Shown: positions 7,013 to 25,265 of the stretch, piece by piece | Position numbering within the stretch: position 1 is the stretch's first letter | Layout: each line of letters begins with the position of its first letter | From: a virus | Lineage: Duplodnaviria > Caudoviricetes | IMG/VR virus record: IMGVR_UViG_3300025267_000042 | Location: 1 to 38,448 of that record | Direction: 5' to 3' (one strand) | DNA: 38,448 bases | Position numbers and translations under genes: made by a program | Notes under the pieces: model-generated | Seen by the model: the letters and a program-made list of their open reading frames with translations, nothing else | What the model was told of the DNA's origin: nothing | Databases searched by the model: none

Positions 7013-7801
7013 ATGCCAACAGCAATAACACATGACCCAGTAGTTACATTTCCTGCTAGTAGCACTAATACTGCTTTAGTTAGATGGAGTGGTACTGGAG
7101 GTAATACTTTATTAGATTCTACTATTATTGTCGGTGCTACTACGATGGGATTAGCTGCAGATACTGATTTAGTTACATTTGGTAATGGCACTCTTACTGT
7201 GGCTGGTACTGTTTCTGCTACATTAATAGCAGGGGCTGCTGTCAAAGATGAAGACAACATGGCTTCTGATAGTGCGACACATTTATCCTCTCAACAGTCT
7301 ATCAAGGCTTATGTGGATGCAAATGCTGGTTTTAATGGGAATTTAACTGGAGGTCAATTAACTTTTCCTGCATCTCAAAATGCTGCTGGTGGTGCTAATG
7401 TTTTAGATGATTATGAAGAAGGTAGTTGGACACCTAATGTTACTTTTGGTGGAGGAAGTACTGGTGTAACATATGCTTGGACTAGATATGGATATTATAC
7501 AAAAATTGGGAATTTAGTAGCTATTTGGGCAAGGCTGGAGCTAAGTAGTAAAGGTTCTTCTACAGGCCATCTTCAGATTACCGGACTTCCATTTACACCA
7601 ACAGCTACTATTTCTGTAATACCTTCTGGGTATCTTAGCAATATAACTTTTTCTGGGCCACTTCATGCAATTGTTGATCAAGGGACGCAAATTATAGATT
7701 TTTACGAAATGAACAGCGGAAGCGGTTCTAGTACTGTTACCAATGGGGATTTAACTAATACGTCAGCAATTGGACTTCAAGGAATTTACGCTATAGTTTA
7801 G
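7013..7801 (+). CDS. Fibre protein (shared anchor, YEEG-type tip domain)
   Basis: N-terminus AITHDPVVTFPASSTNTALVRW. C-terminal LDDYEEGSWTP...YTKIGNLV...ITGLPFT is paralogous to the tip of 799..2544. Confidence 0.75.
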   Translation: MPTAITHDPVVTFPASSTNTALVRWSGTGGNTLLDSTIIVGATTMGLAADTDLVTFGNGTLTVAGTVSATLIAGAAVKDEDNMASDSATHLSSQQSIKAYVDANAGFNGNLTGGQLTFPASQNAAGGANVLDDYEEGSWTPNVTFGGGSTGVTYAWTRYGYYTKIGNLVAIWARLELSSKGSSTGHLQITGLPFTPTATISVIPSGYLSNITFSGPLHAIVDQGTQIIDFYEMNSGSGSSTVTNGDLTNTSAIGLQGIYAIV

Positions 7802-8346: not shown

Positions 8347-9441
8347 ATGATTGTTTGGGGTTCTTTTTATCTTTGGGACAATAGTGCCTCTGCATATGTA
8401 GATCATGAGTTTGCTGTTTCCGATATACCGGGAGCAGCTGTTGATTTAATTGCACAGACGACAGATAAGATCTATATGGGATTAGATCGTAAGTTTTATG
8501 CTGCATTTTTTGAATTAGATACTGCTGGAGATTATGGCACTCTATTAGATTGGGAATATTGGAATGGTAGTGCTTGGAAGAATCTTCCAATATCTAGGAA
8601 TTATGTTTTAGATGCAATTTCTGGAGTCATACAGTTCAGAATACCTAATGATTGGACTGCTAATACTCTAACTGGCATTGAAAATACGAATGCTGGGCTT
8701 AAAACTGAAGATACTTCGGCTGGTACAGCTAAATATTGGCTTCGAGTATCTGCTTCAGCTGTAACAATTACTGCTACCATGAAGCGATCATTCCCATTTC
8801 CTAGTTATGGGTATACTACTCCTACACGTATCTCTCAGTTTCTTCAATTACGACAGGATTTTTCTACTACTACCACACCTAGTAAGGAAGATGTAGAAAG
8901 AGTTATAGAAAGAGTAGAAAGTAGGCTTGATAGATACACTACTAATTCATGGAAACCTAATTATCGTCAAGATGAGACTTATGAATTCAGTAGACATGGC
9001 CTTGTTCTTAAAAGACAGCCAGCCATAAAGGTTATTGACCTTTCTATATGGAACGGTAGTGACTTTACTCTGTTAGCTGATGGCCGTTCTCAAGATTATT
9101 TTGTGGATGCGAAGACGGGAATCATTCCAATAACTAGATTATTGAGTATTCCGTTTACATATACTCGTTCTAGTAATGCTTGGGGATTCGGTGAGTTTAA
9201 ACGAGCACTCAACGTTAATTATGTGTGGGGAAGAGATTTTGATGAGGATGTAGCTGCTGGACAAGTTGAAGATATAATTACTAAATTAGCGTCAGCTGAC
9301 ATAATTTCTAATTATGATTACACTAATATAGTTCCTCAAGGCACTGATCGTTTTGCCTTAGAACAAAAAGTTAATTTCTGGCGTGAAAATGCTGATGAAA
9401 GAATGGAAGAACTACGTAGTGTACGGATGTGGGTTCCTTAA
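8347..9441 (+). CDS. Head-tail adaptor/connector with extra N-terminal beta-sandwich domain
   Basis: C-terminal part YTTPTRISQFL...VERVIERVESRLDRYT..W...DYFVD...G...VNYVWG...IITKLASADII resembles adaptor proteins, and the gene heads the neck-tail block. The N-terminal WEYWNG domain is also found three times in 19716..25265. Confidence 0.6.
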   Translation: MIVWGSFYLWDNSASAYVDHEFAVSDIPGAAVDLIAQTTDKIYMGLDRKFYAAFFELDTAGDYGTLLDWEYWNGSAWKNLPISRNYVLDAISGVIQFRIPNDWTANTLTGIENTNAGLKTEDTSAGTAKYWLRVSASAVTITATMKRSFPFPSYGYTTPTRISQFLQLRQDFSTTTTPSKEDVERVIERVESRLDRYTTNSWKPNYRQDETYEFSRHGLVLKRQPAIKVIDLSIWNGSDFTLLADGRSQDYFVDAKTGIIPITRLLSIPFTYTRSSNAWGFGEFKRALNVNYVWGRDFDEDVAAGQVEDIITKLASADIISNYDYTNIVPQGTDRFALEQKVNFWRENADERMEELRSVRMWVP

Positions 9442-19715: not shown

Positions 19716-22700
19716 ATGGCTGAATCTTTAGCTGGTGCATATTTTCAGTTTTCTGAATCTCTTAAATTAGATAGGACTGTTCAAGAACGTTGGATAACTG
19801 ATCCATATTTTTTAAGTTATGCATTAATAGATAGTTTAGGTACTAGAAGTCGAGTATTGCGTGTAACGTTATCTAATCCTAAAAATGCTAGAAGTGACAG
19901 TTGGTATCCTCCTATGGTTCGTGTTCGTCTTATGGAAGATTTCGGAGTAGTAGCATTTTTAGGAAGAGTTGTATCCGTGGAGCCTCAGTATGCAGCTAAT
20001 ACAGTAATACTTACGTGTAGAGATTTTTTGGATGATATTTCTGATCATACTGTTGAAGCAGCGGAAACTGATGGAGTTATAACAGGTGTTACTCGTAATT
20101 ACCTTATTGATACGATATTAAATAATGATACATATAAACCTACTAAAGGTGGAGATACAGAACGTACTCTTGTTCGTAGATTACAAATGGATAATTCTGC
20201 TTATTGTGAACAGATAAGTAGAACTTATGGTCAAAAAGGTAATTTTCAGACTCAATCAGGACAGTCTGGAGCAGATTTTGAGTATAGAGGTGTTAAAACT
20301 GGGTTAGAAGCACTTTCTGAAATTGCTACTGAAGATGCACAACAAGATTTAATGGCTTTTTACTATCATCCAACGCCAACAGATCCAACTACATATGCTC
20401 ATACTAGTAATCCCCAAGGAAAACCTCGTACATATTGGACTGATTTAACTAGAGACATAGTTGATGGTCAATCTCACTTTGTTACACCTCAACTTGCAGA
20501 AGATACTCAATATCCACAAGATGCGGATATCTTATATTTTGGTAGTAATAGTAAATTTGACGGTCTTAGGTATACGTTTGTTACGCATGGAGCAGATATT
20601 GAGAATGGAGCCTATGGAGGTAATTTACAGTGGCAATTTTGGAATGGTAGGGTGTGGACTAATTTTACTCCTACTGCAGATGCTGAATTTGGATTAGATT
20701 CGGGTAAGATTTATGGAACTGTATATTGGACAGTTGCTAATTTAACTGGATGGTCTAAGAGAGATCTTGGTTCTACTCCCGATATGCATACTGCGAATGA
20801 TCCTAATATTGCTATTCCTCCTCCGTGGGCTACTAGCGGTAGTATAACCAGTACTACAGTTAATAGTGATGCTATTTCTATAATGGACCATGCAGACGAG
20901 CTTAGAACGACTAATAGACATTGGGTTAGAGTATATGTTCGTACTGGTAGCATAACTGTTGGTAAGATAAATACTGTTGATTTTTACACAAAACCTAAGT
21001 TATTTCATGATTTTAGATGTGAAGATCCATTATTCTTTAATGAAGTGTGGAGATATCAACACAATGTTACTTCTACCGGATGGCCTGTAGGTAGGGAGGG
21101 TCCGGGAGGAATTTGGGATTCTTTAAATACTATAGATGGTAGAGTAGGGGTCGGGGATCGATTATTATGGGATTCTAATGATAATGTTACGCCATTTTTA
21201 AATCGTAGAAATCAAACAATGTATTTTGGTTTAGATTATCCATTTAATGGTATTCAATTTCATGCAAGGCAAATAAATCCTCCAGATTATTCGAATGTAG
21301 ACATGGTTTGGCAGTGGTTTAGCAATTGGCATTCTTTTTATTATGGTAGGGATGAAGGATGGCAAACTATATCTGGTTTAACAATCTCTGGAAATACTGT
21401 TGCTAATCCTACAGTTATAACTACAGAACGTCATAATCTTGGTACTGGAGATACTGTTACTATTTCTGGTTCTAATAGTACTCCAACTATTAATGGAACT
21501 CATACTATAACGTATATAAGTGCTACAACGTTTTCTATCGCAGTAAATGTAACTACAGCAGGTACTGCAGGACATGTTATCTGTGATGATCGTATTACTC
21601 AATCTTCAAAAATGATGGCTACCGGAGATGCTTCATGGATGCAAGATATTGGATTAAATGATGATTTAGAAGATTATTATCTCGATGTACGGTGGGATAC
21701 TTCCAAACCATTCCTAGATTTAGCTTATGATCTTGATATTGATGAATTAGATAATAGACATATTTTAGAAGATTACCCATTTGATGATAGAGTTTCTCTG
21801 AAGAGTTATGGCACAGCTAAAAGATCAAGTGATTGGGATAGTGGCGTTGCTATGGGGATTAATAATATCTCAGTTGCTAATCCAACGGTAATCACTACTG
21901 CTGCAGGATCTGGAGGATCTACTGCAAACCATAATTTGCGAACTGGAGATCGCATATTTATTAGAGGCTCTGACTCTACTCCATCTATAGATGGTTGGCA
22001 TGTTATAACTAATATTGTTGATGGTGACGGTGTAATTACAAGTTTTAATACTTTTACTATTGATGTAAATGTTACAACAGCAGGAGATGCTGGACAGGTA
22101 TTAGCTACTACTCTTCCTCCTAATGATAAGAATTTATATTGGGTTCGTTGTTACTATAAATTACAGAATGCTGCCGATCTTTATCCTAAGCGTGAGGCAG
22201 AACTTATTGATGTTCAAACTTCACCTGTAGGGTCTTTAAAATATTTTAGTAGGGGTAAAGAACCTTGGAATACTAATTCCAATTTAACAGCTGGGGGAAC
22301 CGTTGCTAGTAGGGATGTAGAGTATTGTTATCGATATGATACGTCAGCTAGTGCTGGTTCTAAATTTACTAATTATAGTGAAGAAATAAAGTCAACTACT
22401 TCGGGTACAAGTCTACAAATAACAGGAAATACTGTAGCAAATCCAACAATTGTGACTACTACAGGAGTAGCTTTAACTATTTCTAGTAATTCAGTAGCAG
22501 ATGAAACTGTTATTACTACAAGTGCTGCACATGGATTAAGTACTGGAGATCTTGTAGTAATTGCAGATACTAATTCTACTCCTACTATTGATGATACTTA
22601 TTCAATTGTAGTTTTAAGCACAACTACTTTTTCAGTTGAGCGTGAAGTCACAAGTGCGGGTAGTGCAGGAACAGCAACCCCTATTGTTTTTCATGATCTT

Positions 22701-25265
22701 ACTACAGGGCATAGCGTTACTATTACAGGGTCTAATTCTACTCCATCTCTAAATGGTACTCATACTGTTACTGTTCTTAGTACTACTACTTTTTCCATTG
22801 CTGTTAATGTAACTGTGGCAGGTACAGCAGGTACAGTAGTTCCCGCAAAAGTTACTGCAATGGACAATGGACAGGTGGGAGATGCTATTTATTTTGGTAT
22901 GACAGAGCCATTTACTGTATTACGTTTGAATGTTAGTGATGCGTTAAGTTCTTCGTCTACGGGATATAGTAATATTACTTGGGAATATTACAGAGGATAT
23001 ACGACTGACAATTGGGCGGAGCTTAACCATACAGATTTTACTGGTGATCTTTCAACTACTGGTACTAATGAGGTTGTGTTTATCAGGCCAGTAGATTGGG
23101 AGCCATGTCAGCCGGGTGTTAAAGAAGCAAATGGAACTGATCAATATTTTGGAAATACTGCTTATTATGTACGAGCTAGAATAAGTAGTAATACCAATAC
23201 TGCAGCTACTTCTACAGCACAGATTGTTCAAGGTTTAACAGGTCCAAAGTTATGGCTTCCAGAGATGGAAGTTGGAACTATTTCTGGAGTTACTTCTAAT
23301 AGATTTTCTACTCCCTTAACCTATGGTCTATCTTTAGTTGAGGGGGAAAATACAACTGATCAAGCTCAACCTGTTGTTAGTTACTCATTAAGAGAAAAAC
23401 CTATAGATTTTGTAAATAAAGTTGTTGTTAGAGGACAAGCAGGGGCTTATGGCACAGTTCAAGATGATGATCTTATAGCAAGTTACGGGATTATTAAAGA
23501 AAAAGTAATAGATGATTCTTCTCTTGTTAACTCTTTACAGTGTGAAACACGAGCAATAGCTCTTTTAGAGCAATATAAACCAGTAGCAGGGGTAGCTGCT
23601 ACTAGTAGTTTTAGAGAATGTCGAATTAGATTGTCTCAGCCTCCTGTTTATTCTTATTTAAAACGACCACAGTTTTTACGAGCTGGAGATAGAGTTAATG
23701 TAACTCTGAATTCTGCTGATATTGTTCAAGAAGATTGGTTAGTTTATACAATACAGTGTACATATAGTGAGGAATCTGCGTGGGTTTGTGAACTTCTTCT
23801 TTTTAGAGATTTAACATCAGTAGCTGAAACAGGCTCTAGTGAAAATAGAATTATTAGAGATTTAGCTAATCGTAGTAGGGAAACAGCTAATGCAGCGTTC
23901 CAACCTATGGATAAAGCTGTTGCATCAGGGTTAGATTTTGTACCAGAAGGTCCGGGTCGCTTTGTAGGAAGGGAGGAATTTGGTGCTGTTGGAACTTCCT
24001 TAAATATCTATCCGCAAGGTGGCAGTACTATAGGTGATTATACTGGTGAATTTTGGTGGACTCGAAAATTATATTCTAATCATAATACTAAAGAAACTAT
24101 TTCTAAAGATCTTATGCGGGTAGATCTCTCTGGTCTTCATCCTGATGAAGCAGGAGTTTCTCTTGGAGGAGCGGGATTAGGATTAATTGCTAGAGATAAA
24201 AATACCAATGGAACTCCAGATTTTCACCCTGCTAATGATGAAGCTACATTATATTTACGTAATTCAGCAACTAATACTGAAGGATCTGGTTTATATCTAG
24301 CACATAGAGATATTTTTAACTCTGGTAATACTTATGATGAGTGGAATACAGATACTCCGAAGATAAATGCTGAAGTTATGACCGGATTCACTGGATTTGT
24401 GGATCATAATACTTTAGGTGATGATGGGTTATTTACTATTACTTTACCTAGTTTAGATTCTATTCCATTGATTTTTACTGCAATTTGCGGTCATGAAGGT
24501 TTATCAGGGACTCCCGGTAATAATGTGAATGCTACTTGCAATGTTAGGCGTTGGACTACTGCATCTGCAGGATCTTGGAGTTATGTAAGTAATTCAGTTA
24601 GTAATCCTACAACTGTATTTATAAATGCTGTTCATAATTTAAGTGCAGGAGATGTTGTTCAAATTTCAGGCGTTACTGGAGGAACACCATCTATTAATGG
24701 TACACATACCATTATTGCAGCTAGTGGCAATAGTTTAACTCTTAATTTAAATGTGACTGTTGCTGGAAGTGGTAGTGGAACGGTTACAGGTATTGGTAAA
24801 TATACTGCTGCTGAGATGCAAGTAGCTGTATACCCCAATAATTTAATGACTTCCTCTACAGATGTACGTGGTATATCTAATATATCAGTTGCTAATCCAA
24901 CCATAATAACTGTTAATGGTTCTATGAATAATAATGAAGGTGTTTGGATTTATGGTAGTAATTCTACTCCAAAAATTGATGGTTTATATACACTAAGTGG
25001 TAAGGCCGATATAGGGGGAGGAAATTATACCTTTGCTCTAAATAGCTTTAATACTTCTGTTTTTCCTGTAAATGTTACTTCATCCGGATCAGCAGGTACT
25101 ATTATACGAGCACTTCATGGGCATGAATTTGATCAGGCTGCCTTTTATGATTATTCTGATAATAGTCCTGCTATCGGTGTTATGTATATGGTAGTATTTA
25201 ATTCAGGTAAAAATACTACAGGACTGAATTCTCACTTTAGTGCAAATCATACGGATCATGGATAG
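19716..25265 (+). CDS. Large baseplate hub/tail tip protein with many inserted domains
   Basis: Hub-like N-terminus (FLGRVVSVEP...VILTCRDFLDDISD) and later hub-like segment (FVNKVVVRG...IASYGIIKEKVIDD...RAIALL...LRAGDRVNV). Three YFG...W[E/Q] domains lie between them. Six ANPT-type modules in total. Confidence 0.7.
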   Translation: MAESLAGAYFQFSESLKLDRTVQERWITDPYFLSYALIDSLGTRSRVLRVTLSNPKNARSDSWYPPMVRVRLMEDFGVVAFLGRVVSVEPQYAANTVILTCRDFLDDISDHTVEAAETDGVITGVTRNYLIDTILNNDTYKPTKGGDTERTLVRRLQMDNSAYCEQISRTYGQKGNFQTQSGQSGADFEYRGVKTGLEALSEIATEDAQQDLMAFYYHPTPTDPTTYAHTSNPQGKPRTYWTDLTRDIVDGQSHFVTPQLAEDTQYPQDADILYFGSNSKFDGLRYTFVTHGADIENGAYGGNLQWQFWNGRVWTNFTPTADAEFGLDSGKIYGTVYWTVANLTGWSKRDLGSTPDMHTANDPNIAIPPPWATSGSITSTTVNSDAISIMDHADELRTTNRHWVRVYVRTGSITVGKINTVDFYTKPKLFHDFRCEDPLFFNEVWRYQHNVTSTGWPVGREGPGGIWDSLNTIDGRVGVGDRLLWDSNDNVTPFLNRRNQTMYFGLDYPFNGIQFHARQINPPDYSNVDMVWQWFSNWHSFYYGRDEGWQTISGLTISGNTVANPTVITTERHNLGTGDTVTISGSNSTPTINGTHTITYISATTFSIAVNVTTAGTAGHVICDDRITQSSKMMATGDASWMQDIGLNDDLEDYYLDVRWDTSKPFLDLAYDLDIDELDNRHILEDYPFDDRVSLKSYGTAKRSSDWDSGVAMGINNISVANPTVITTAAGSGGSTANHNLRTGDRIFIRGSDSTPSIDGWHVITNIVDGDGVITSFNTFTIDVNVTTAGDAGQVLATTLPPNDKNLYWVRCYYKLQNAADLYPKREAELIDVQTSPVGSLKYFSRGKEPWNTNSNLTAGGTVASRDVEYCYRYDTSASAGSKFTNYSEEIKSTTSGTSLQITGNTVANPTIVTTTGVALTISSNSVADETVITTSAAHGLSTGDLVVIADTNSTPTIDDTYSIVVLSTTTFSVEREVTSAGSAGTATPIVFHDLTTGHSVTITGSNSTPSLNGTHTVTVLSTTTFSIAVNVTVAGTAGTVVPAKVTAMDNGQVGDAIYFGMTEPFTVLRLNVSDALSSSSTGYSNITWEYYRGYTTDNWAELNHTDFTGDLSTTGTNEVVFIRPVDWEPCQPGVKEANGTDQYFGNTAYYVRARISSNTNTAATSTAQIVQGLTGPKLWLPEMEVGTISGVTSNRFSTPLTYGLSLVEGENTTDQAQPVVSYSLREKPIDFVNKVVVRGQAGAYGTVQDDDLIASYGIIKEKVIDDSSLVNSLQCETRAIALLEQYKPVAGVAATSSFRECRIRLSQPPVYSYLKRPQFLRAGDRVNVTLNSADIVQEDWLVYTIQCTYSEESAWVCELLLFRDLTSVAETGSSENRIIRDLANRSRETANAAFQPMDKAVASGLDFVPEGPGRFVGREEFGAVGTSLNIYPQGGSTIGDYTGEFWWTRKLYSNHNTKETISKDLMRVDLSGLHPDEAGVSLGGAGLGLIARDKNTNGTPDFHPANDEATLYLRNSATNTEGSGLYLAHRDIFNSGNTYDEWNTDTPKINAEVMTGFTGFVDHNTLGDDGLFTITLPSLDSIPLIFTAICGHEGLSGTPGNNVNATCNVRRWTTASAGSWSYVSNSVSNPTTVFINAVHNLSAGDVVQISGVTGGTPSINGTHTIIAASGNSLTLNLNVTVAGSGSGTVTGIGKYTAAEMQVAVYPNNLMTSSTDVRGISNISVANPTIITVNGSMNNNEGVWIYGSNSTPKIDGLYTLSGKADIGGGNYTFALNSFNTSVFPVNVTSSGSAGTIIRALHGHEFDQAAFYDYSDNSPAIGVMYMVVFNSGKNTTGLNSHFSANHTDHG

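What the first reader, a model, noticed from the sequence alone, without database searches (positions are those of the whole stretch)
22325..23180. Russian-doll nesting: module inside module inside a binding domain inside the hub
Seen: the outer module starts LQITGNTVANPTIVTTTGV (22413-22469). It is interrupted by a complete second copy, ALTISSNSVADETVITTSAAHGLSTGD...EVTSAGSAGTATPIV (22470-22688), and resumes FHDLTTGHSVTITGSNSTPSLNG...AGTAGTVVP (22689-22844). Removing both rejoins YRYDTSASA...STTSG to AKVTAMDNGQVGDAIYFG, matching the uninterrupted adaptor sequence YLWDNSASA...IPGAAVDLIAQTTDKIYMG. That domain itself sits between the two halves of the hub-like fold. The same loop holds a short insert (AAGSGGSTAN) in the 21855 copy. 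Inference: four-level nested insertion builds a stalk-like branch, a way of extending adhesins that differs from tandem duplication.
Basis: partly seen in the sequence, partly recalled or inferred. Interest (0 to 1): 0.8.

Follow-up and report, generated by a model that had tools for sequence, protein, structure and literature searches.

The report
Barrel-inside-barrel knob on phage tail tip
A marine phage's likely tail-tip hub protein carries a small domain written inside a second copy of itself, inside a jelly-roll domain; the arrangement is shared by nearly all close relatives and is predicted to fold as a forked pair of beta-barrels that likely helps the virus grip its host, a nested build known from other proteins but not found in print for this domain.

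Summary
The nesting is real. In the 1,849-aa gene 19716-25265 an E1-FCCH-like beta-barrel (22470-22688) interrupts a paralogous barrel (22413-22469 + 22689-22844) after its second strand. It is not a misassembly: 19 of 20 close orthologues have the same order, and two other runs bridge both junctions without differences. AlphaFold2 models both barrels at pLDDT about 90. The inner one matches FCCH (Z 12.3), and the flanks close into one jelly roll. That jelly roll is the third of three inserted before the hdIII-hdIV half of a gp27/Mu-gp44-type hub (Z 9.6); the N-terminal half is only weakly supported. Relatives show zero, one, two tandem or two nested barrels at this site. Corrections: the inner barrel attaches near the base of the outer one, so a fork is likelier than a stalk; adhesion is untested. 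Nested domains are published for tail sheaths and cyanobacterial RNA polymerase Si3, and FCCH decoration for tail tubes. I found no paper on FCCH self-nesting. This scan noted similar, deeper nests on other DNA. Verdict: new variant of a known kind, moderate interest.

The parts
19716..25265 (+). Tail-tip hub (Tal/gp27-like) gene, 1,849 aa (P0001), with 3 jelly-roll domains and 6 FCCH-like barrels
19716..20348 (+). Likely hub hdI and first part of hdII (aa 1-211)
   Evidence: hhalign to an 8-sequence Mu gp44 profile: aa 34-178 on gp44 19-164, E 0.012, probability 3.6%, against E 0.14-0.5 for 6 control segments; weak
20349..20990 (+). Jelly roll 1 (about aa 212-425), no barrel inserted
   Evidence: similar to the 8347 protein's N-terminus (score 94, 0 of 1000 shuffles); strands in model; borders approximate
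21009..22223 (+). Jelly roll 2 (about aa 432-836), carrying two single barrels in two other loops
   Evidence: motif order read from the sequence and strands; pairwise similarity to the other jelly rolls is weak; borders approximate
21372..21587 (+). Intact FCCH-like barrel (aa 553-624)
   Evidence: Pfam E1_FCCH best stretch 566-613
21849..22112 (+). Intact FCCH-like barrel with a 10-residue insert (21900-21929) in the beta2-beta3 loop
22311..22412 (+). Jelly roll 3, first two strands (aa 866-899)
   Evidence: jelly-roll match spans model residues 4-322 across the insert
22413..22469 (+). Outer barrel, strands 1-2
   Evidence: HMM 3-19; strands 44-49 and 55-60, pLDDT 90-91
22470..22688 (+). 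Inner barrel, complete (73 aa)
   Evidence: 75 bits against the leave-out HMM; model 61-134 on E1 FCCH, Z 12.3, rmsd 1.5, 74 aligned
22689..22844 (+). Outer barrel, strands 3-6
   Evidence: HMM 22-71; same strand pattern as the inner barrel, pLDDT 90-95
22845..23243 (+). Jelly roll 3, remainder (aa 1044-1176)
   Evidence: 9efk_M Z 12.9, rmsd 3.0, 143 aligned; contractile-injection baseplate chains Z 6.9-8.8; CBMs Z 6-7
23244..23810 (+). Hub C half, hdIII-hdIV (aa 1177-1365)
   Evidence: aa 1197-1364 on Mu gp44 177-335, Z 9.6, rmsd 8.1, 137 aligned; many other hubs likewise; Foldseek best hit 3cdd E 6e-5
8365..8775 (+). Uninterrupted paralogous jelly roll at the N-terminus of the 364-aa likely head-tail adaptor (reference empty state)

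Best explanation
A 73-residue FCCH-like module sits in the beta2-beta3 loop of a paralogous module, which sits in a loop of a jelly-roll domain inside a likely Tal/hub protein; the two modules are predicted to fold as two beta-barrels that likely project from the tail tip as a forked knob serving accessory host-surface binding. Shown: the N-N-C-C order, its conservation, and empty, single and nested states in relatives. Predicted: inner barrel contiguous, outer barrel discontinuous, jelly roll closing around them. Inferred: the barrel's N and C ends lie side by side, so an in-frame copy can be dropped into a surface loop, including one of its own kind, without unfolding the host. One such event with a copy of this or a sibling barrel gave the nest in the ancestor of this phage group, and it has been kept since. 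The beta2-beta3 loop is at the same end as the termini, so the pair branches rather than stacks, giving much the same display as a tandem pair. Least certain: that the knob binds glycans or other surface polymers.
For: Sequence order and excision test. Same nest in 19 of 20 close orthologues at 51-67% identity, insert 73 aa in 19 and 74 aa in 1 of the 20 nested proteins including P0001. One barrel in P0023. No barrel in 70 of 124 jelly-roll domain hits that span the site in one piece. AlphaFold2 pLDDT 80.8, pTM 0.74, barrels about 90; the same strand pattern in the 1,200-aa model. Fold matches to FCCH, to the phage endosialidase barrel (Z 9.0) and to tail-tube barrels of T1 and FCWL1 (Z 8.6). 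Hub C half. FCCH faces outward on siphophage tail tubes (PMC13576161, passages). Dits and Tals commonly carry carbohydrate-binding modules (PMC7291167, passages). The inner barrel is more variable among orthologues (64% mean identity) than the outer (77%).
Against: No fold-search row aligned a solved barrel to the outer copy; the inner copy always gave the best alignment, and coordinates could not be read, so the outer fold is inferred from confidence, strand pattern and end-to-end constraints. No binding evidence; the jelly roll has no Pfam CBM hit and its best matches are phage tail and injection-system domains, not CBMs. Higher variability also fits relaxed constraint, and two other copies are as variable (63%, 62%). 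The source of the inner copy is unresolved (60% to outer, 58-59% to two other copies; a 75-column tree does not settle it). The hub N half is weak. The alignments for folding were shallow (19 and 24 rows).
Confidence: 0.62

Rival explanations
1. Same fold, but the barrels are non-binding ornaments or spacers that are tolerated because they fold on their own; the nest is a frozen accident.
For: Barrels come and go: another copy (aa 1619-1693) is present in 3 and absent in 17 of the 20 close proteins that cover the site; P0023 has a single barrel; many jelly-roll relatives have none. The passages read on tail-tube FCCH give no binding function.
Against: The nest is kept at fixed length across proteins only 51-67% identical, which implies purifying selection at least on folding; virion-surface position and a CBM-like host fold favour a contact role (inference).
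Confidence: 0.27
2. The N-N-C-C sequence folds with exchanged partners: first hairpin with the first C part, or completion of a barrel by a neighbouring subunit of the hub trimer.
For: Inner and outer copies are about 60% alike and so could exchange hairpins; only monomers were modelled.
Against: In both models the stretch aa 917-991 alone superposes on FCCH over 74-75 contiguous residues, so the inner N and C parts pair with each other; the linkers are only 2-4 residues.
Confidence: 0.07
3. The barrel gene segment is a self-mobile coding element that inserts into its own copies.
For: At least 8 complete or split copies in two adjacent genes, filled and empty sites, and apparent nesting at other loops in unrelated proteins.
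Against: Copies are old (30-67% identity), the nested site is fixed in one state in 19 of 20 orthologues, and no enzyme domain is in the module. Terminal inverted repeats and target-site duplications were not tested.
Confidence: 0.03
4. Assembly artefact from collapsed repeats.
For: Repeated modules can confuse assemblers; only contigs, no raw reads, were available.
Against: Same order in 19 diverged orthologues and in a deposited protein (ANS04416.1); single contigs in runs X3 (22398-23700) and X7 (22254-22783) bridge both junctions with 0 differences; DNA copies are only 62-75% alike.
Confidence: 0.01

Closest known systems
E1_FCCH (PF16190) decoration domain of siphophage tail tube proteins (NBD2 gp39, MED16 gp13, PF08813; PMC13576161, 4 passages read), also T1/FCWL1 tubes and the endosialidase barrel
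   Same: Same six-stranded barrel fold (Z 8.6-12.3), used as an outward-facing add-on of a virion protein.
   Different: There one copy on the tube protein; here six copies in the hub, one inside another. The passages read describe no self-nesting.
Si3 insertion of cyanobacterial RNA polymerase (PMC10895346, 9 passages read)
   Same: Paralogous small beta domains not in simple tandem, several built from distant parts of the chain.
   Different: Another fold (sandwich-barrel hybrid), eight copies forming a 150 A arm in an enzyme; here only two deep, on a virion.
'Russian doll' tail sheath proteins (PMC6088184, 2 passages read)
   Same: Up to four domains inserted one into another in a phage-type tail protein, outer ones surface-exposed and variable.
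   Different: Different domains are nested there, not copies of one; sheath, not hub.
Evolved Dit/Tal with carbohydrate-binding modules (PMC7291167, 12 passages read) and the hdII insertion of T5 pb3 and GTA hubs (PMC10038345, 7 passages read)
   Same: Tail-tip core proteins decorated by modules inserted into loops; large insertion in hdII of the hub.
   Different: Here three jelly rolls in a row are inserted at about Mu gp44 165-175, apparently later in hdII than T5's and lambda's insertion (their matches to gp44 resume at about 140 in Table 1 of PMC7291167), and they carry barrels in turn. In T5 the insertion closes the tube; its role here is unknown.

Membership tests
E1_FCCH-like barrel (PF16190) | Pfam score above the curated cut-off | tested here: met
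   63.1 bits against 29.5 for the whole protein; best stretch is another copy, aa 566-613
E1_FCCH-like barrel (PF16190) | Six-stranded closed barrel, inner copy | tested here: met
   predicted model: Z 12.3, rmsd 1.5, 74 aligned
E1_FCCH-like barrel (PF16190) | Six-stranded closed barrel, outer (split) copy | tested here: inconclusive
   sequence 86-97 bits after excision, pLDDT 90-95 and same strand pattern, but no fold-search row aligned to it
gp27/Mu gp44/Tal hub | hdIII-hdIV fold | tested here: met
   Z 9.6, rmsd 8.1, 137 aligned to gp44 177-335; MuSo2, Chi, JBD30, pyocin and T5 hubs also listed
gp27/Mu gp44/Tal hub | hdI-hdII in the N-terminal part | tested here: inconclusive
   expected register but E 0.012, probability 3.6%; no hit; aa 1-165 not modelled, aa 166-210 pLDDT under 50
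gp27/Mu gp44/Tal hub | Gene after tape measure and Dit genes | tested here: inconclusive
   tail tube (PF18906) and chaperone (PHROGs) genes lie upstream; tape measure (13728) and Dit-like (16346, 18714) labels are my inference from position, with no family hit for those roles
gp27/Mu gp44/Tal hub | Trimer closing the tail tube | not testable with these tools
   needs a virion structure
Carbohydrate-binding module (evolved Tal) | Jelly-roll beta-sandwich fold | tested here: met
   Z 6-7 to CBM15/27/32/35/51, higher to phage tail and injection-system domains; Z under 8 may be only a common arrangement
Carbohydrate-binding module (evolved Tal) | Glycan binding | not testable with these tools
   no assay; no Pfam CBM family hit
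Si3-type self-nested array | Paralogous domains, some discontinuous in sequence | tested here: met
   works like it
Si3-type self-nested array | Sandwich-barrel hybrid fold | tested here: inconclusive
   top matches are FCCH barrels; no SBHM chain listed; not filed as a member

The most novel reading that the evidence does not exclude
FCCH-like barrels are a general plug-in system of phage particles that nests into itself at three different loops (beta1-beta2, beta2-beta3, beta5-beta6). The loop used sets the geometry, stalk or fork, and exact gain and loss of whole barrels on the hub retunes host recognition: a recursive, reversible way to build receptor-binding surfaces that has not been described for tail tips.
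Probability: 0.25. Interest if true: 0.7.

Novelty: new variant of a known kind. Interest (0 to 1): 0.45.

Why it matters
It gives a small, clean natural series at one site (no barrel, one, two in tandem, two nested) for testing how domains come to be inserted into copies of themselves and how a chain folds a split domain around a twin without mispairing. It also identifies a marine phage protein deposited only as 'mucin-2-like' (ANS04416.1) as a likely decorated tail hub, and shows that repeat and domain scanners, which assume tandem order, misread such proteins.

Tried and rejected
Complex prediction of the two hub halves (aa 1-216 with 1176-1370): no verdict, score 0.51 against a control at 0.49; not used either way. 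Searches for named relatives found none: viral contigs, annotated phages with the hub and with the tube protein, genome index with the hub C half. Two searches among shorter proteins gave only pieces of close orthologues, so no uninterrupted hub of this family was found. Pfam, PHROGs and PDB sequence searches with the N half gave nothing useful. ESM Atlas: jelly roll only 'hypothetical', under 0.9; hub C half leads to baseplate/Tal families at 0.87-0.90, a lead only. Whether P0023's single barrel is a loss or the ancestral state is unsettled: both trees put it inside a starred clade of nested proteins, but the AU test gave p 0.30 (855 columns, two outgroups) and p 0.041 (1,358 columns, P0025 left out, one long outgroup, run afterwards); recombination could give either. 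The module tree (104 rows, 75 columns) recovers the outer copies as one clade with P0023's barrel beside it, but not the source of the inner copy. The joint 22370-22772 in runs X5 and X7 is not a deletion: 401 minus 239 letters is 162, the spacing between inner and outer copies, so a relative's inner copy matched the window's outer copy; a one-barrel form would leave 182. Two other joints have short sides and look like cross-matches between copies. Nesting calls in P0029 are rejected or doubtful (77 and 3 of 300 shuffles), P0051 marginal (6 of 300). Literature: no paper on self-nested FCCH barrels in 10 searches (searches are the ones aimed at it); the library lacks most subscription journals and no supplements were read. 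Sialic-acid binding by the endosialidase barrel is recalled only; one search found no paper for it. PMC12407071 (4 passages) does not describe the matching domain of chain 9efk_M.

Full report
Setting. The window is a 38.4-kb phage contig (the whole held genome) found in marine metagenomes (20 of 22 listed runs hold the stretch or part of it, 18 studies). It has fibre-like genes, a tail tube (PF18906) and chaperone, then a likely tape measure gene, two likely Dit-type genes and the 1,849-aa gene 19716-25265 (P0001), followed by replication genes. The labels tape measure, Dit and adaptor are my inference from position and sequence pattern.

The observation. The repeated module is Pfam E1_FCCH (63 bits, cut-off 29.5). 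A profile from six other copies finds N part, whole copy, C part in that order; after cutting out the inner copy the outer halves score 86 bits over nearly the full profile and are 67% identical to the intact copy at aa 553-624, against 48% to the inner copy. A shuffled N part never scored as high (0 of 300). The order N-N-C-C cannot come from one tandem duplication.

Not a misassembly. Of 65 proteins found with aa 840-1300, 20 are close orthologues (51-67%), 2 distant ones and 43 are further hits that mostly share only the barrel. Nineteen of the 20 have the same nest; P0023 has one intact barrel there. A fragment (P0073) and a deposited protein (ANS04416.1, 'mucin-2-like protein', uncultured Mediterranean phage) also have it. 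Of 8 runs laid (of 22 listed; contigs only, the two possible source runs left out), 2 have one contig bridging both junctions with no difference (X3, X7; both 2017, possibly one campaign). X4 bridges each junction with a separate contig, X5, X8, X12 and X14 one junction each, X6 neither among the pieces shown; no listed joint skips the inner copy.

Structure. AlphaFold2 on aa 857-1185 with 19 rows gave pLDDT 80.8 and pTM 0.74. The outer hairpin (model 44-60) and outer C part (136-187) are at 90-95 and repeat the strand pattern of the inner barrel. Model 61-134 superposes contiguously on E1 FCCH (Z 12.3, rmsd 1.5, 74 residues), on the phi92 endosialidase barrel (Z 9.0-9.1) and on T1 and FCWL1 tail-tube barrels (Z 8.6). 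The flanks, model 4-322, superpose as one jelly roll on chain M of the LME-1 portal-tail complex (Z 12.9, rmsd 3.0, 143 residues), on contractile-injection baseplate chains and, more weakly, on CBMs. No row aligned to the outer barrel itself. Its fold is inferred: its ends must meet to close the jelly roll, its inner break must meet to close the inner barrel, and confidence is high. In 14 of 39 E1-type rows the residue before the barrel is matched to model residue 44 or 45, which puts the start of the outer barrel beside the start of the inner one. The insertion loop is therefore at the attached end, and the pair most likely forms a fork rather than a stalk.

The hub level. A 1,200-aa model (aa 166-1365, pLDDT 70.1, pTM 0.55) repeats the barrel result. 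Its last part (aa 1197-1364) matches the second half of Mu gp44 (177-335; Z 9.6, rmsd 8.1), MuSo2, Chi, JBD30, pyocin and T5 hubs. The N part was not folded with confidence. Profile alignment places aa 34-178 on gp44 19-164 in the expected register, weakly (E 0.012; six control segments 0.14-0.5), and the joined halves run collinear over gp44 19-333. What lies between is not one domain but about 965 residues: three jelly rolls in a row, the second with two single barrels in other loops, the third with the nested pair. T5 and GTA hubs also have a large hdII insertion (PMC10038345, passages), apparently at an earlier point.

States in relatives. Among the 83 further jelly-roll carriers plus P0001 and P0003, 70 of 124 domain hits span the insertion site in one piece, that is with no barrel. 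P0023 has one barrel; P0025 appears to have two in tandem and P0024 one barrel after a different insert (weak scores, read by eye). Whether P0023 lost the inner copy is open (AU p 0.30 and 0.041). Of 178 complete barrels in 72 of 161 proteins, 28 left a full barrel when cut out: 21 are this family's nest, and 7 lie in six other proteins at two other loops. Four of those 7 (P0028, P0037, P0045, P0064) beat all 300 shuffles, three did not; they rest on 5-10 residues and optimised cut points. Self-nesting thus seems to recur in this barrel family.

How it likely works. The barrel's ends lie together, so a copy fits in frame into surface loops, also of its own kind; the same loop takes a 10-residue insert in the 21855 copy. 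One insertion in the group's ancestor explains the fixed 73-74-residue length. By eye the inner copy's flanks resemble the outer copy's own flanks, which hints at a local copy, but identities (58-61% to four candidates) and the module tree do not settle it. On the particle the hub is expected to be a trimer (established for this family), so three forked knobs would ring the tail tip. Accessory binding to host surface polymers is my best reading, from position, the CBM-like host fold and the use of this barrel on virion surfaces; a non-binding ornament is the main rival.

Known versus new. FCCH domains on siphophage tubes (PMC13576161), CBM-decorated Dit and Tal proteins (PMC7291167), Russian-doll sheaths (PMC6088184) and discontinuous paralogous domains in Si3 (PMC10895346) are published; I read search passages of each, not whole texts or supplements. 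PMC13612043 (12 passages) reports a weak FCCH likeness in the Avs-1 hub and dismisses it as local. I found no paper on FCCH barrels nested in themselves. This scan's earlier notes list nine findings of self-nested barrels in other phage genomes, eight shown, several much deeper; none matches this sequence and I did not check them. This case is shallow, but well controlled and in a likely siphophage hub. Verdict: real, new variant of a known kind, interest 0.45.

Noticed in passing
window:24570-24794: Another barrel in the C-terminal domain of P0001 is a clean filled/empty site: present in P0001, P0005 and P0013, absent in 17 of the 20 close proteins that cover it. P0013 is not sister to the other two in the trees, which suggests exchange or repeated loss.
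   Followed up: partly
window:16346-18670: The likely Dit-type gene carries two intact and two degenerate FCCH-like barrels (aa 133-192, 352-423, 503-574, 620-655), an 'evolved Dit' with barrels in place of CBMs.
   Followed up: no
window:8347-8800 and 20349-23243: An unnamed jelly-roll family (no Pfam or PHROG hit) occurs on the likely head-tail adaptor and three times in the hub, and in 87 library representatives, many with 2-5 copies; closest solved domain is 9efk_M 489-637.
   Followed up: partly
P0028 1517-1653; P0037, P0045, P0064; P0051: Unrelated large proteins appear to nest the same barrel at the beta1-beta2 turn or the beta5-beta6 loop; P0029 resembles P0028 with the beta1-beta2 site empty.
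   Followed up: partly
window:9442-10383: The likely tail-terminator gene has a central stretch of about 150 residues with a weak Cip1-like/polysaccharide-lyase core hit (E 0.047), perhaps another inserted beta-sandwich.
   Followed up: no
window:1-7801: Six consecutive fibre-like or Gly/Ser/Thr-rich genes, some sharing C-terminal modules (phrog_17970 in 799-2544 and 7013-7801).
   Followed up: no
runs X3, X4, X5, X7 on window:22321-22370: Several diverged relatives at higher depth than this phage share the jelly-roll strands next to the nest, so the group is diverse within single samples.
   Followed up: no
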